The translations under genes were made by a program, and so were the position numbers. The notes beneath the pieces were generated by a model. The model ran no database searches and was not told the DNA's origin. It worked only from the letters and a program-made list of their open reading frames with translations. A DNA stretch of 64,000 bases from Escherichia phage PE37: the sequence record NC_054929.1; one strand, 5' to 3'. Positions within the stretch are counted from its first letter, which is position 1. Each line of letters starts with the position of its first letter. Shown piece by piece: positions 61,727 to 63,953 of the stretch.

Positions 61727-61799
61727 TGGGAATTAGCCAAGTTGGTAAGGCACTGGATTTTGATTCCAGGATGCAAAGGTTCGAGTCCTTTATTCCCAG
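61727..61799 (+). tRNA. tRNA-Gln (anticodon UUG)
   Basis: cloverleaf by eye: acceptor TGGGAAT/ATTCCCA, anticodon stem CTGGA/TCCAG, loop TTTTGAT, T-loop TTCGAGT. Confidence 0.85.
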
Positions 61800-61800
61800 C

Positions 61801-61887
61801 GCGAGAATGGTCAAATTGGTAAAGGCACAGCACTTAAAATGCTGCGGAATGATTTCCTTGTGGGTTCGAGTCCCACTTCTCGCACCA
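61801..61887 (+). tRNA. tRNA-Leu (anticodon UAA), type II with long variable arm
   Basis: acceptor GCGAGAA/TTCTCGC, anticodon loop CTTAAAA, T-loop TTCGAGT, encoded CCA. Confidence 0.85.
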
Positions 61888-61892
61888 AATTT

Positions 61893-61966
<74 letters not shown>

Positions 61967-61976
61967 ATTTAATTTA

Positions 61977-62050
61977 CTCCGTGTAGCTCAGTTTGGTAGA
62001 GCGCCTGATTTGGGATCAGGAGGTCCAAGGTTCAAATCCTTGTATGGAGA
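61977..62050 (+). tRNA. tRNA-Pro (anticodon UGG)
   Basis: anticodon stem CCTGA/TCAGG, loop TTTGGGA, T-loop TTCAAAT; acceptor has G-U pairs; no encoded CCA. Confidence 0.8.
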
Positions 62051-62052
62051 CT

Positions 62053-62142
62053 GGAGGCGTGGCAGAGTGGTTTAATGCACCGGTCTTGAAAACCGGCAGT
62101 CGCTCCGGCGACTCATAGGTTCAAATCCTATCGCCTCCGCCA
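62053..62142 (+). tRNA. tRNA-Ser (anticodon UGA), type II
   Basis: acceptor GGAGGCG/CGCCTCC, anticodon stem CCGGT/ACCGG, loop CTTGAAA, long variable arm, encoded CCA. Confidence 0.85.
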
Positions 62143-62147
62143 GTTTT

Positions 62148-62223
62148 GCTGATTTAGCTCAGTAGGTAGAGCAACTCACTTGTAATGAGAAGGTCGGCGG
62201 TTCGATTCCGTCAATCAGCACCA
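62148..62223 (+). tRNA. tRNA-Thr (anticodon UGU)
   Basis: acceptor GCTGATT/AATCAGC, anticodon loop CTTGTAA, T-loop TTCGATT, encoded CCA. Confidence 0.85.
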
Positions 62224-62224
62224 A

Positions 62225-62299
62225 GGCCCTGTAGCTGGAAGGTTCAAGCAAGCGACTCATAATCGCCAGATGGTGGTTCAATTCCACCCAGGGCCACCA
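62225..62299 (+). tRNA. tRNA with CAU anticodon (Met or lysidine-type Ile)
   Basis: acceptor GGCCCTG/CAGGGCC, anticodon loop CTCATAA, T-loop TTCAATT, encoded CCA. Confidence 0.8.
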
Positions 62300-62308
62300 A
62301 ATTAATTT

Positions 62309-62395
62309 GGGGAGTTATCCCGTAGAGGTAGCGGTGTGGACTGTAAATCCATTGTCATTGCGACTCGGGTGGTTCGACTCCATCACTCCCCACCA
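62309..62395 (+). tRNA. tRNA-Tyr (anticodon GUA), type II
   Basis: acceptor GGGGAGT/ACTCCCC, anticodon loop CTGTAAA, variable-arm hairpin, T-loop TTCGACT, encoded CCA; D-arm atypical. Confidence 0.75.
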
Positions 62396-62399
62396 ATTT

Positions 62400-62474
62400 G
62401 GATGTGTAGCTCAATGGCAGAGCGATCGCCTGTTAAGCGATTGGTTATAGGTTCGAATCCTATCACGTCCGCCA
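62400..62474 (+). tRNA. tRNA-Asn (anticodon GUU)
   Basis: acceptor GGATGTG/CACGTCC, D-stem GCTC/GAGC, anticodon stem ATCGC/GCGAT, loop CTGTTAA, T-loop TTCGAAT, encoded CCA. Confidence 0.88.
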
Positions 62475-62478
62475 AATC

Positions 62479-62554
62479 CGAGGCATAGCTCAGAAGGAAG
62501 AGCAAGGACCTTCTAAGTCCTAGGTCGTAGGTTCGATCCCTACTGCCTCGACCA
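62479..62554 (+). tRNA. tRNA-Arg (anticodon UCU)
   Basis: acceptor CGAGGCA/TGCCTCG, D-stem GCTC/GAGC, anticodon stem AGGAC/GTCCT, loop CTTCTAA, T-loop TTCGATC, encoded CCA. Confidence 0.88.
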
Positions 62555-62570: not shown

Positions 62571-62921
62571 ATGAAAGGTAATGTTTATTTAGTAGTTCAT
62601 GATTTAACATTTTATTTTAATCACAATGACACGGTTATTTCTGAACGTGTAATTAATTTGCTTTATCAACACGCGGATTATGTTTATGTCGAAAACGAAT
62701 ATGGTCATTGGCAATTTCTCAAAAATCGTTCATTTGGCTTAGATGGTTACGAATACTTTGAACGTAAAGACCTTTTAGATAAAATTTCGTTATCTACACA
62801 ATATCAAAATCATAAGTCTTTACATAAATGTCGGCTAATTCGAAATGCTGAATCTGCTTATGAAGCAATTGATTTATGGCGTTTACGCCGTGAACAAATT
62901 GATGCTTTAAAAGAATATTAA
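62571..62921 (+). CDS. hypothetical protein (116 aa) inside the tRNA transcription unit
   Basis: ATG 17 nt after tRNA-Arg 3' end with GAGGAAAA RBS. Confidence 0.5.
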   Translation: MKGNVYLVVHDLTFYFNHNDTVISERVINLLYQHADYVYVENEYGHWQFLKNRSFGLDGYEYFERKDLLDKISLSTQYQNHKSLHKCRLIRNAESAYEAIDLWRLRREQIDALKEY

Positions 62922-63089
62922 GAAACCGGGTCGCTACCGGTAAGTCGTCGGACTGATGTTCCCTGTTTAAGGACTGGCATTAATAAATCTTTATGTTTTG
63001 TTAATGTCCTCTTATATCACAGCAGAAACGGCGCACCGAATTATCGATTCGAGGAAATATCTTTGCCGTAAGCCGAGTAGCGTTTTTGA

Positions 63090-63184
63090 CGGAACGTTCG
63101 GATATGGTCGAGATATGGCCTTTTAAAAATATTGAGTAGCGTCAACTGCTTAATAACCGGGTTCGAATCCCGGCGTTTCGTACA
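63090..63184 (+). ncRNA. tRNA-like stable RNA candidate
   Basis: 7-bp acceptor-like helix (63090-63096 with 63174-63180) closing a canonical T-arm (CCGGG-TTCGAAT-CCCGG, 63157-63173); no clean D or anticodon arm; terminator at 63236-63260. Confidence 0.35.
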
Positions 63185-63235
63185 AACACTTGCCTTAGCA
63201 GGTGGAACCCCGACAAGGTTGCCGCAAGGCTTAGA

Positions 63236-63260
63236 CCCGACCGAAAGGTTGGGGCTTTTT
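63236..63260 (+). terminator. intrinsic terminator closing the tRNA/stable-RNA unit
   Basis: CCCGACC-GAAA-GGTTGGG followed by GCTTTTT. Confidence 0.7.
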
Positions 63261-63262
63261 GG

Positions 63263-63270
63263 TATAAATA
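63263..63270 (+). promoter_or_regulatory. late promoter TATAAATA (CTS protein at 63311)
   Basis: exact 8-mer directly after terminator, 41 nt upstream of ATG. Confidence 0.6.
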
Positions 63271-63310
63271 TAGTAGTATATTAAATCCACGAATTAAAAC
63301 AGGAAATAAG

Positions 63311-63784
63311 ATGAAATCATATACTCAATTTTTAAATGAAGCGGTGTTAAATGAAGCATCTAGCACCGAAATTCAAGCTGTCGCAAAAGCAGCCATTGCA
63401 GCGGGTAAATATTCTTACAAAGATGCTTCTGATGAATCGCGATTCCAGTTTGCACGCGACATGAAAGCGGAAGGATTTACGGGAAATGCAGTTAGTATGG
63501 CCTGGAAAAGTTTAGTTGCTACTGGCGCTGCTTTTGCAAAGGCTTCGGGTAAACCTGCTCCTAAAGCAGATCCTAAAGTCGCACAAGAGAAAAATATTGT
63601 TAAAGGAATTATCTCCAAATATGAAGCTATCCTTAAAGAGCTTTTAGTAATCAAAACTGAAGGCCAAAAACTAGCTCGTGCTTATAGTTTCAAAGATAAC
63701 CCACATGCTCACTCTCTTGAGTATGTTGAAGACATCCAAAAAATTATTAAAGACCGCATTTGGTCTGCTAAACAAATCAAATAA
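63311..63784 (+). CDS. internal-protein candidate with capsid targeting signal
   Basis: N-terminus MKSYTQFLNEAVLNEA (CTS-like with L-x-E sites); late promoter at 63263-63270; terminator downstream. Confidence 0.55.
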   Translation: MKSYTQFLNEAVLNEASSTEIQAVAKAAIAAGKYSYKDASDESRFQFARDMKAEGFTGNAVSMAWKSLVATGAAFAKASGKPAPKADPKVAQEKNIVKGIISKYEAILKELLVIKTEGQKLARAYSFKDNPHAHSLEYVEDIQKIIKDRIWSAKQIK

Positions 63785-63792
63785 CATTCTTA

Positions 63793-63819
63793 GCCCCGAC
63801 CAAAAGGTTGGGGCTTTTT
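63793..63819 (+). terminator. intrinsic terminator (near-duplicate of the 63236 terminator)
   Basis: GCCCCGACC-AAAA-GGTTGGGGC followed by TTTTT. Confidence 0.7.
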
Positions 63820-63953
63820 GGTATCTAGGCCTTTCCAGGCCTCTCTAGACATCATTTAGTTTCTACCCTTTATAATATATTATCCTATCCTTTGATTTCC
63901 CCTCCCTGCCCTAGAATTCCCCAAAACTTTTTAAAAATTTTTTTCACAAAACG

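What the first reader, a model, noticed from the sequence alone, without database searches (positions are those of the whole stretch)
62922..63260. tRNA-like stable-RNA candidate downstream of the tRNAs
The 340-nt non-coding stretch between the 116-aa ORF and the terminator contains a canonical T-arm (CCGGG-TTCGAAT-CCCGG, 63157-63173) closed by a 7-bp acceptor-like helix (CGGAACG 63090-63096 pairing CGTTTCG 63174-63180). I could not draw standard D or anticodon arms, and the 3' end is followed by ACA, not CCA. This resembles the tRNA-associated small stable RNAs known from T4 (function unknown), or a degenerate or intron-containing tRNA.
Basis: seen in the sequence. Interest (0 to 1): 0.45.

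Follow-up and report, generated by a model that had tools for sequence, protein, structure and literature searches.

The report
T4 species 1/2 stable RNA genes
The flagged stretch holds this T2/T4-type phage's copies of two small stable RNAs known since the 1970s (rnaD and the tRNA-like rnaC), so the gene is not new, although comparing relatives shows a conserved fold, with two hairpin loops pairing with each other, that I did not find described.

Summary
The interval 62922-63260 is the rnaD-rnaC (species 2 / species 1 RNA) locus of T-even phages plus its terminator. It is 96-99% identical to hundreds of Tequatrovirus genomes, and RB9, T4, RB3 and T2L annotate it as rnaD/rnaC.

The acceptor helix it drew (63090-96 with 63174-80) is not the conserved one. 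A partner that good turns up in 42% of shuffles, and other genera carry A.C mismatches there. The conserved acceptor uses the 5' end of the RNA (63045-51), matching the annotated T4 5' end at 63044. RNase P should therefore cut at 63044/45, not 63090.

Thirty-three distinct homologs from eight T4-like genera, all inside tRNA clusters, support this fold:
- a 7-bp acceptor plus T-arm;
- a long arm (P2) and a 10-bp arm (P3) in place of the D and anticodon arms;
- hexaloops UUGACG and CGUCAA that are complementary in every sequence, with two independent compensatory changes.

Function is still unknown. My inference is a non-decoding tRNA mimic cut out by the tRNA-processing enzymes. Verdict: already known gene, modest new structural detail.

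The parts
62918..63037 (+). rnaD (species 2 RNA) homolog. It has a 5' hairpin (62925-62941: 5-bp stem, 7-nt loop GUCGCUA), a terminal stem joining 62944-50 to about 63029-36, and a long arm whose tip is hypervariable between phages. Its first bases overlap the stop codon of the 116-aa ORF.
   Evidence: RB9 rnaD and T4 rnaD map here. Seventeen distinct Tequatrovirus versions have near-invariant ends and a variable centre. The RNAalifold structure shows some covariation. No homolog was found outside the T4-type loci.
63044..63182 (+). rnaC (species 1 RNA) homolog, the tRNA-like stable RNA. Ends are as annotated in T4 and RB9. Position 63044 (U) is more likely the -1 nucleotide of the RNase P site, so the ends are uncertain by 1-2 nt.
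   Evidence: 98-100% identical to annotated rnaC of T4, RB3, RB10 and RB68. Model R1 scores 168.7 bits. Fold supported by covariation.
63045..63051 (+). 5' strand of the acceptor stem (CGAUUCG). It pairs with 63174-63180 and contains two U.U mismatches.
   Evidence: pair 3 is A-U in 12 sequences and G-C in 21. Both U.U positions become U-A and C-G in Tegunavirus.
63052..63121 (+). Long arm P2, which takes the place of the D arm. Base AGG/CCU 63052-54 x 63119-21; P2a 63058-76 x 63098-115; 3-nt bulge GUA 63077-79; P2b 63080-85 x 63092-97.
   Evidence: 15 of 16 P2a pairs and 5 of 6 P2b pairs show changes on both sides. Coordinates.
63086..63091 (+). Hexaloop L2 (UUGACG), one half of the loop-loop (kissing) helix.
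   Evidence: Complementary to L3 in all 33 distinct sequences. It becomes UUGAUG in Tegunavirus and UUGGCG in Marfavirus-type sequences, each matched by a change in L3.
63122..63129 (+). A-rich single-stranded linker (UUUAAAAA) between P2 and P3, partly conserved.
63130..63155 (+). Arm P3: a 10-bp stem (63130-39 x 63146-55) with hexaloop L3 (CGUCAA, 63140-45), the other half of the kissing helix.
   Evidence: 8 of 10 stem pairs show changes on both sides. L3 becomes CAUCAA or CGCCAA in step with L2.
63157..63173 (+). T-arm: CCGGG / UUCGAAU / CCCGG.
   Evidence: 100% paired, with 2 of 5 pairs compensatory. The T-loop motif is enriched in the window. In Kanagawavirus the loop is replaced by UGCAUGC.
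63174..63184 (+). 3' strand of the acceptor stem (CGUUUCG, 63174-80), discriminator U 63181, then ACA where a tRNA has CCA.
   Evidence: The tail is N-C-A in all homologs: ACA in most, UCA in Tegunavirus, and a true CCA in Marfavirus-type sequences.
63187..63204 (+). Hairpin in the 3' trailer (CACUUGC-CUUA-GCAGGUG).
   Evidence: MFE fold. The trailer is conserved in T4 and even in Mosigvirus AV115, which has lost rnaC.
63236..63260 (+). Intrinsic terminator that ends the tRNA/rnaD/rnaC transcription unit.
   Evidence: Terminator scan. It is part of a 36-nt direct repeat with 63789-63824. PMC2330249 states that transcription of the cluster is presumed to terminate after the species I RNA gene.

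Best explanation
The interval is the rnaD-rnaC stable-RNA locus of a T2-type Tequatrovirus. The steps below are marked as shown or inferred.

1. Shown by homology and annotation: 62918-63037 is rnaD (species 2 RNA) and 63044-63182 is rnaC (species 1 RNA). Both are co-transcribed with the ten upstream tRNA genes and end at the terminator 63236-63260.
2. Shown by covariation in 33 distinct homologs from eight genera: rnaC folds into a tRNA-like top half (a 7-bp acceptor stem joining its own 5' and 3' ends, stacked on a canonical 5-bp/7-nt T-arm). The D and anticodon arms are replaced by a roughly 25-bp arm P2 and a 10-bp arm P3.
3. Shown by covariation: the hexaloops of P2 and P3 (UUGACG and CGUCAA) are complementary to each other, implying a 6-bp kissing helix.
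4. Inferred from the fold, from its position a few nucleotides from flanking tRNAs in every genus, and from established tRNA processing: the RNA is excised by the tRNA machinery. RNase P would cut between U63044 and C63045, and the 3' end would be trimmed by exonucleases back to the N-C-A tail.
5. Inferred, low confidence (about 0.25): the mature RNA does not decode. It acts in trans as a tRNA mimic, presenting only the acceptor/T-arm face to a host or phage protein that recognises that face (a processing or modification enzyme, or a toxin that targets tRNA ends). The kissing-locked body would give it a rigid tRNA-sized shape.

No experiment has yet assigned a function.
For: Identity:
- 805 phage records match the interval, 677 of them over at least 80% of its length.
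- RB9 annotates rnaD and rnaC at the aligned positions, and T4 does the same.
- The same layout, including the ORF between tRNA-Arg and species II RNA, is described for T2L in PMC2330249.

Expression:
- In T4, RNAC and RNAD are late RNAs validated by northern blot (PMC9697503).

Fold:
- RNAalifold on 8 genera finds 24 of 46 pairs with compensatory change.
- On 33 distinct sequences, 93% of cells are paired and 33 of 53 pairs change on both sides. No shuffle out of 500 reaches this, and slid controls give 37-47% pairing.
- Frequent G.U pairs fix the + strand as the RNA strand.

Kissing helix:
- It is 100% Watson-Crick in all 33 sequences. A-U becomes G-C in 5 Marfavirus-type sequences and C-G becomes U-A in 2 Tegunavirus sequences.
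- Of 10,585 possible 6x6 antiparallel column windows, it is one of only two that are at least 97% paired.

Processing context:
- In Karam-, Kanagawa-, Moon-, Gelderland-, Kagamiyama-, Teguna- and Marfavirus the homolog lies within tRNA clusters. In six of these genera it begins 5-6 nt after a tRNA's 3' end (Tegunavirus follows an ORF; the Marfavirus type follows a ~65-nt spacer), and in five a tRNA begins within ~10 nt of its 3' tail; Kanagawa- and Marfavirus are followed by ORFs.
- The base before the acceptor is U in most sequences and the tail is N-C-A.

Selection and distribution:
- Conservation with compensatory change from Tequatrovirus to Marfavirus argues for a function of the folded RNA.
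- The pattern scan found no bacterial or archaeal copy.
Against: - No function is known. Papers from 2010, 2022 and 2025 all say so.
- The tRNA region is not essential for phage development (PMC2330249).
- Mosigvirus AV115 keeps only a degenerate relic without P2 (21.9 bits), so the RNA is dispensable in at least some hosts and lineages.
- The acceptor stem has two U.U mismatches and no CCA in this phage. Kanagawavirus has lost the canonical T-loop sequence. Both weaken any model that needs strict tRNA-like recognition.
- Covariation cannot tell an intramolecular kiss from an intermolecular one.
- The annotated T4 5' end (U63044) is one base upstream of the RNase P site I predict.
- The mature ends were not measured here.
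- The decoy idea rests on shape alone.
Confidence: 0.8

Rival explanations
1. One reading: a 93-nt tRNA-like RNA whose acceptor stem is 63090-96 x 63174-80, released by RNase P cutting at 63090.
For: The helix can be drawn with 7 pairs. It appears in the MFE fold when only 63090-63182 is folded. Rfam's weak tRNA-Sec alignment uses the same register (16.6 bits, E = 1.5). It is 85% paired across homologs.
Against: - There is no compensatory change, and 19 of 33 sequences have an A.C or other mismatch at pair 3.
- Such a partner arises by chance in 42% of shuffles.
- Its bases belong to L2 and P2b, which do covary.
- The full-length MFE fold does not use it.
- The annotated T4 and RB9 5' end is 46 nt upstream.
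Confidence: 0.03
2. A degenerate, or intron-containing but functional, decoding tRNA.
For: It lies in a tRNA cluster and has a canonical T-arm and a 7-bp acceptor. A few GenBank records label the region tRNA-OTHER or tRNA-Lys (H89 and H117).
Against: - ARAGORN, which detects introns, calls nothing here, and no Rfam tRNA match reaches threshold.
- There is no 7-nt anticodon loop. Both candidate loops are hexaloops occupied by pairing with each other.
- The non-tRNA arms are under purifying selection with compensatory changes, which a decaying pseudogene would not show.
Confidence: 0.02
3. No function in trans. rnaC (and rnaD) would be structured spacers or stable by-products whose only role is in cis: directing or ordering RNase P, RNase E and exonuclease processing, or protecting the 3' end of the tRNA operon transcript.
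For: - It is always embedded in tRNA operons.
- In Tequatrovirus it is the last gene before the terminator.
- It is dispensable and lost in Mosigvirus.
- rnaD has a hypervariable centre.
Against: - A spacer does not need an invariant pair of complementary hexaloops, an invariant junction (CGAGGA...GGCCU) and a 140-nt fold maintained by compensatory change over eight genera.
- In other genera it is internal to the cluster, not a 3' cap.
- It accumulates as a discrete late RNA.
Confidence: 0.12
4. The L2-L3 complementarity acts between molecules. rnaC would form head-to-tail homodimers or larger assemblies, a scaffold rather than a monomeric tRNA mimic. This is compatible with the same gene identity and secondary structure.
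For: - Covariation is blind to whether pairing is within or between molecules.
- P2 (about 25 bp) and P3 (10 bp) are unequal, so an intramolecular kiss needs P2 to fold back at the GUA bulge and its internal loops (geometry is inference).
Against: P3 + kiss + P2b is about 22 stacked pairs and P2base + P2a is about 19-22 layers. The two paths match in length, as closing a ring within one molecule would require (inference). There are no data on oligomeric state.
Confidence: 0.15
5. The stretch encodes small proteins (ORFs 62998-63126 of 42 aa and 63132-63284 of 50 aa), as some GenBank records imply with 'hypothetical protein' calls.
For: Mechanical ORFs exist. Some records annotate CDSs over the region.
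Against: Both ORFs start with TTG. One- and two-base indels between homologs break the frames, while base pairing is preserved.
Confidence: 0.01

Closest known systems
Bacteriophage T4 rnaC (species 1 RNA; T4s001) and its annotated orthologs in RB3, RB9, RB10, RB68 and T2L
   Same: Orthologous sequence (98-100% identity), same length, same place after rnaD and before the terminator, same strand as the tRNAs. Function unknown in all.
   Different: Nothing substantive. The window has the T2L-type layout, with ten tRNAs and a 116-aa ORF between tRNA-Arg and rnaD, rather than the T4 layout with segB.
Bacteriophage T4 rnaD (species 2 RNA; T4s002)
   Same: Orthologous conserved 5' and 3' parts, and the same position immediately upstream of rnaC.
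   Different: In T4 and RB9 rnaD starts 1-2 nt after the CCA of tRNA-Arg. Here an ORF intervenes and its stop codon overlaps the rnaD 5' end. The central hairpin differs, and the base after ...GCGCACC is G rather than A.
Canonical tRNA (Rfam RF00005)
   Same: 7-bp acceptor stem directly continuous with a 5-bp T stem and a 7-nt UUCGAAU loop, a single discriminator base, N-C-A at the CCA position, and a location in a tRNA operon.
   Different: No D arm and no anticodon arm or anticodon. About 140 nt long. Two U.U mismatches in the acceptor. No encoded CCA in this phage. Not detected by ARAGORN or Rfam.
tRNA-like domain of tmRNA (from my own knowledge of the family)
   Same: An acceptor/T-arm module without an anticodon arm, joined to a larger structured body, and processed by RNase P.
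   Different: No G3.U70 alanine identity pair, no encoded CCA here, no tag reading frame and no pseudoknot ring. ARAGORN finds no tmRNA.
Other phage small RNAs matured by RNase P (phi80 M3 RNA, P1/P7 C4 antisense RNA), listed as RNase P substrates in PMC11143913
   Same: Phage-encoded small RNAs that borrow the host tRNA 5'-processing enzyme.
   Different: No sequence relationship was tested or expected. C4 works by antisense pairing, whereas the conserved loops of rnaC pair with each other rather than being free for a target.
Loop-loop (kissing) organised RNAs such as the purine riboswitch L2-L3 or hexaloop kissing complexes of the TAR-TAR* type (from my own knowledge)
   Same: Two hairpins from one junction joined by Watson-Crick pairing between their loops. 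Here both loops are hexaloops that pair over all six bases.
   Different: No homology. The arms are of unequal length, and no ligand or partner is known.

Membership tests
T4 rnaC / species 1 RNA | Sequence orthology to the annotated T4 rnaC gene | tested here: met
   141-nt query: 98.6% identical to T4 and 100% to RB3 and RB10 records annotated rnaC. Alignment with T4. Model R1 scores 168.7 bits for the window and 170.3 for T4.
T4 rnaC / species 1 RNA | Position: same strand as the tRNA cluster, downstream of it and of rnaD, followed by the operon terminator | tested here: met
   tRNAs 61727-62554, rnaD 62918-63037, rnaC 63044-63182, terminator 63236-63260.
T4 rnaC / species 1 RNA | Accumulates as a discrete stable RNA of about 140 nt in infected cells | not testable with these tools
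   Shown for T4 by northern blot (PMC9697503). Not measured for this phage.
T4 rnaD / species 2 RNA | Sequence orthology to annotated rnaD, immediately 5' of rnaC | tested here: met
   Alignment to RB9 rnaD and to T4. Seventeen distinct versions share the 5' 45 nt and the 3' 25 nt.
Canonical tRNA | Cloverleaf with D arm, anticodon arm with a 7-nt loop, and T arm; detectable by tRNA finders | tested here: not met
   ARAGORN tRNAs but none here. No Rfam tRNA hit at gathering threshold; the best is tRNA-Sec at 16.6 bits against a threshold of 47. The conserved fold has no anticodon arm.
Canonical tRNA | 7-bp acceptor stem stacked on a 5-bp T stem with a T-loop | tested here: met
   63045-51 x 63174-80 and 63157-73, both supported by covariation. 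The acceptor carries two U.U mismatches in 31 of 33 sequences.
Canonical tRNA | 3'-terminal CCA, encoded or added, and aminoacylation | tested here: inconclusive
   The encoded tail is U-ACA here, U-UCA in Tegunavirus and U-CCA in Marfavirus-type sequences. Whether CCA is added or the RNA is charged cannot be tested here.
tmRNA | tRNA-like domain plus a tag-peptide reading frame and pseudoknots | tested here: not met
   ARAGORN reports no tmRNA in the window, and Rfam has no tmRNA hit.
Any curated Rfam family (including Y-RNA-like YrlA and other tRNA-like RNAs) | Covariance-model match at or near the gathering score | tested here: not met
   No match at gathering threshold in the interval. In E-value mode all six hits are more than 30 bits below threshold.

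The most novel reading that the evidence does not exclude
rnaC is a purpose-built tRNA decoy. The rigid body, locked by the kissing loops, would present only the acceptor/T-arm face with a non-chargeable N-C-A end. The phage would use it late in infection to occupy or misdirect a protein that recognises tRNA ends, for example a host immunity toxin that modifies or cleaves tRNA acceptor ends, or a host processing or CCA-repair enzyme. rnaD, with its hypervariable tip, could be a second host-specific RNA of the same kind. The one experimental hint is the convergent SNP in rnaD in all T4-like phage lines evolved on the semi-permissive host ECOR34 (PMC12685909). Nothing here excludes this reading and nothing tests it.
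Probability: 0.15. Interest if true: 0.7.

Novelty: already known. Interest (0 to 1): 0.3.

Why it matters
As a gene it does not matter much. It is a textbook T-even feature found again in a T2-type genome, and many modern phage annotations simply omit it or cover it with spurious 'hypothetical protein' or 'tRNA-OTHER' calls.

It matters slightly more as an open question. Species 1 and 2 RNAs have had no function for about 50 years, and Rfam has no model for them.

The comparative model built here gives three things:
- a way to annotate the family: 33 distinct sequences, eight genera, always in tRNA clusters, none found in bacterial genomes;
- a corrected acceptor stem and predicted RNase P site;
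- concrete mutants, namely L2, L3 and the compensating double mutant, for structure-function tests.

Tried and rejected
- Rfam at gathering threshold and in E-value mode found nothing beyond noise in the interval.
- ARAGORN made no call in the interval.
- First IMG/VR pattern scan: 11 of the 30 loci were chance matches that the covariance model did not confirm, L036 duplicated L009's RNA, and L020 was cut at its 3' end.
- A second apparent copy in phage Moon (28 bits) is two adjacent tRNAs matched by the model, not a paralog.
- Genome-contig scan: zero hits.
- rnaD-rnaC intermolecular duplex prediction was not better than shuffles (18 of 300) and is uninformative.
- A single-column search for further tertiary contacts gave many clade-driven false positives. 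I therefore relied only on helix-level evidence.
- The Mosigvirus 'tRNA-Asn' that shares 25 nt with rnaC is a degenerate relic without P2, not a compact homolog.
- The primary 1970s-2003 literature (McClain 1972, Miller 2003) is not held in the library. Statements about the original RNA sequencing are therefore from memory and are marked as such.
- Literature searches found no functional study and no description of the kissing loop.

Full report
**What is there.** The window carries ten tRNA genes on the + strand at 61727-62554 (Gln, Leu, Gly, Pro, Ser, Thr, Met, Tyr, Asn, Arg). They are followed by a 116-aa ORF (62571-62921), the flagged non-coding stretch, and an intrinsic terminator at 63236-63260.

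**Identity.**
- A distant-mode BLAST of 62900-63290 against 50,697 phage records finds 805 records, nearly all T4-like phages of enterobacteria, and 677 cover at least 80% of the query.
- RB9 annotates the aligned sequence as ncRNA rnaD ('species II RNA') and rnaC. The alignment puts these at window 62918-63038 and 63044-63182.
- T4 itself annotates rnaD and rnaC ('small, stable RNA; species 2 / species 1 RNA') in the same order after tRNA-Arg. RB3, T2L, RB10, RB68 and others do the same.
- The window has the T2L arrangement described by Brok-Volchanskaya et al. [quoted passage not shown]
- In T4 both RNAs are late transcripts confirmed by northern blot (PMC9697503). Their function is stated to be unknown in 2010, 2022 and 2025.

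**Checking the drawn structure.**
- The T-arm is real. The motif GGTTCGAATCC (at most one mismatch) occurs eight times in the window against 0.71 expected, all on the + strand in the tRNAs plus this site.
- The proposed acceptor helix 63090-96 x 63174-80 is not beyond chance. A 7/7 partner (G.U allowed) for CGTTTCG appears in 42% of dinucleotide shuffles of the upstream 235 nt.
Folding the full annotated RNA gives a different fold at -50.2 kcal/mol, z = -4.6. There the 3' strand pairs with the RNA's own 5' end, and 63090-96 lies inside a long hairpin.

**Comparative evidence.**
- I collected homologs from GenBank phages of other genera: Kanagawa-, Karam-, Moon-, Teguna-, Gelderland-, Kagamiyama- and Marfavirus. 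I added IMG/VR and metagenome contigs found by pattern scans.
- I built covariance model R1 and aligned all 44 confirmed hits, which give 33 distinct sequences.
- The consensus fold has 53 pairs. 93% of cells are paired, 33 pairs change on both sides, no shuffle out of 500 reaches any measure, and slid controls give 37-47% pairing. Abundant G.U pairs show the + strand is the RNA.
- The acceptor stem is 63045-51 x 63174-80. Pair 3 is A-U in 12 sequences and G-C in 21. The two U.U positions become U-A and C-G in the Tegunavirus sequences.
- This agrees with the annotated T4 5' end at the position equivalent to 63044. The base before the stem is U in most sequences, the usual -1 base of RNase P substrates (established knowledge). 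I therefore predict cleavage at 63044/45. The annotated end may be off by one.

**Architecture (window coordinates).**
- Acceptor stem 63045-51 / 63174-80.
- P2 follows with no linker: base 63052-54 / 63119-21, P2a 63058-76 / 63098-115, bulge GUA 63077-79, P2b 63080-85 / 63092-97, hexaloop L2 63086-91 (UUGACG).
- A-rich linker 63122-29.
- P3 63130-39 / 63146-55, with hexaloop L3 63140-45 (CGUCAA).
- One base (63156), then the T-arm 63157-73.
- Discriminator U63181, then ACA.
- The tail is N-C-A in every homolog: ACA in most, UCA in Tegunavirus, and a genuine CCA in Marfavirus-type sequences.

**The kissing loops.**
- L2 and L3 are exact reverse complements. All six pairs are Watson-Crick in all 33 sequences. 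Two independent clades changed both sides: UUGAUG/CAUCAA in Tegunavirus and UUGGCG/CGCCAA in Marfavirus-type sequences.
- Isolated column pairs give many clade-driven false positives, so I tested at helix level. Of 10,585 possible antiparallel 6x6 column windows, only two are at least 97% paired in all sequences: the P2b stem and this loop-loop helix.
- I did not find this interaction described in the searchable literature. The 1970s papers are not held, so I cannot exclude an earlier description.
- Whether the kiss forms within one molecule or between two cannot be decided from sequence. The stack P3 + kiss + P2b (about 22 pairs) matches P2base + P2a (about 19-22 layers). That fits ring closure within one molecule, but this is inference.

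**Context and distribution.**
- In every other genus the homolog lies within a tRNA cluster, in most cases a few nucleotides from a tRNA on one or both sides. In Karam- and Gelderlandvirus it lies between tRNA-Trp and tRNA-Gly, and in Moonvirus between tRNA-Met and tRNA-Gly. In Kanagawavirus it follows tRNA-Met, and in Tegunavirus it precedes tRNA-Trp. That is what a molecule excised by the tRNA-processing enzymes would look like.
- A pattern scan of 185,579 bacterial and archaeal genomes found nothing.
- Mosigvirus AV115 retains only the last 25 nt or so, the trailer and the terminator, fused to a poorly folding 'tRNA-Asn'. This is a relic without P2 (21.9 bits).
- The region is described as non-essential.
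- Kanagawavirus sequences replace the T-loop with UGCAUGC.

**rnaD.**
- Only the T4-type loci have it.
- Its 5' 45 nt and 3' 25 nt are nearly invariant, while the tip of its long arm is hypervariable.
- It has a 5-bp/7-nt hairpin at the 5' end with one covarying pair. A terminal stem leaves ...CACC(N) at the 3' end.
- It is not tRNA-like in the usual sense.
- In T4 and RB9 it abuts tRNA-Arg. Here the ORF intervenes, so its 5' end must be made differently.
- The only functional hint in the literature is a convergent SNP in rnaD in a T4-like phage evolved on ECOR34 (PMC12685909).

**Mechanism.**
- Shown: identity, transcription-unit layout, fold, loop-loop complementarity, and the association with tRNA clusters.
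- Inferred from established tRNA biology: 5' maturation by RNase P at 63044/45 and 3' trimming to the N-C-A tail.
- Inferred with low confidence: a non-decoding tRNA mimic that offers the acceptor/T-arm face to a tRNA-binding protein.
They are listed with their tests. The last three are effectively excluded.

**Verdict.** Novelty is 'already known'. The added value is a corrected, covariation-backed secondary structure with a loop-loop tertiary contact, and a family definition that Rfam lacks. Interest 0.3.

Noticed in passing
window 62571-62921: A 116-aa ORF (PHROG 3355, unknown function) lies between tRNA-Arg and rnaD, where T4 and RB9 have only 1-2 nt. It is the T2L 'trna.2 ORF' (primer matches in PMC2330249). 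Its stop codon (62919-21) overlaps the position of the T4 rnaD 5' end, so the rnaD 5' end cannot be made here by trimming from tRNA-Arg.
   Followed up: partly
window 63230-63265 and 63789-63824; ORF 63311-63784: A 36-nt direct repeat (94% identical) containing the terminator flanks a 157-aa ORF (PHROG 2280, unknown function), which is preceded by a late-promoter-like TATAAATA at 63263. RB9 has a single terminator copy and no such ORF at this spot. It looks like a cassette inserted or lost by recombination between terminator copies.
   Followed up: partly
window about 62965-63015 (centre of rnaD); loci L018, L022, L002: The tip of the rnaD long arm is replaced by unrelated sequences in different Tequatroviruses, while the flanks stay nearly invariant. 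This pattern would fit either weak constraint or host-specific diversification.
   Followed up: partly
L061 (Mosigvirus AV115) 1145-1300: An annotated 'tRNA-Asn' is a chimera. Its last 25 nt or so, the trailer hairpin and the terminator match rnaC and its downstream region. Its acceptor does not pair and it folds no better than shuffles (z = +0.7). It is probably a deletion relic of rnaC mis-annotated as a tRNA.
   Followed up: partly
L039 1434-1500, L046 12334-12400 and L044, L050, L059 (Marfavirus-type): A conserved element of about 65 nt lies between tRNA-Met and rnaC, closed by a 7-bp G-rich stem (GGGGUGG...CCCACCC). It may be another small processed RNA. The fold z-score is only about -1.7.
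   Followed up: partly
L003, L014, L037, L041, L058 (Kanagawavirus-type), alignment A4 columns 128-134: The T-loop UUCGAAU of rnaC is replaced by UGCAUGC while the T stem and the rest of the fold are kept. The canonical T-loop sequence is therefore not required in that clade.
   Followed up: no
window 62311-62390: The tRNA-Tyr gene scores only 30.2 bits against Rfam tRNA (threshold 29), far below its nine neighbours (59-74 bits).
   Followed up: no
GenBank records MK373779 (H89), MK327945 (H117), MG746602 (L039) and others: Public annotations of the rnaC region are inconsistent: 'tRNA-OTHER', 'tRNA-Lys', 'hypothetical protein', or nothing. Only a minority of records name rnaC or rnaD.
   Followed up: no
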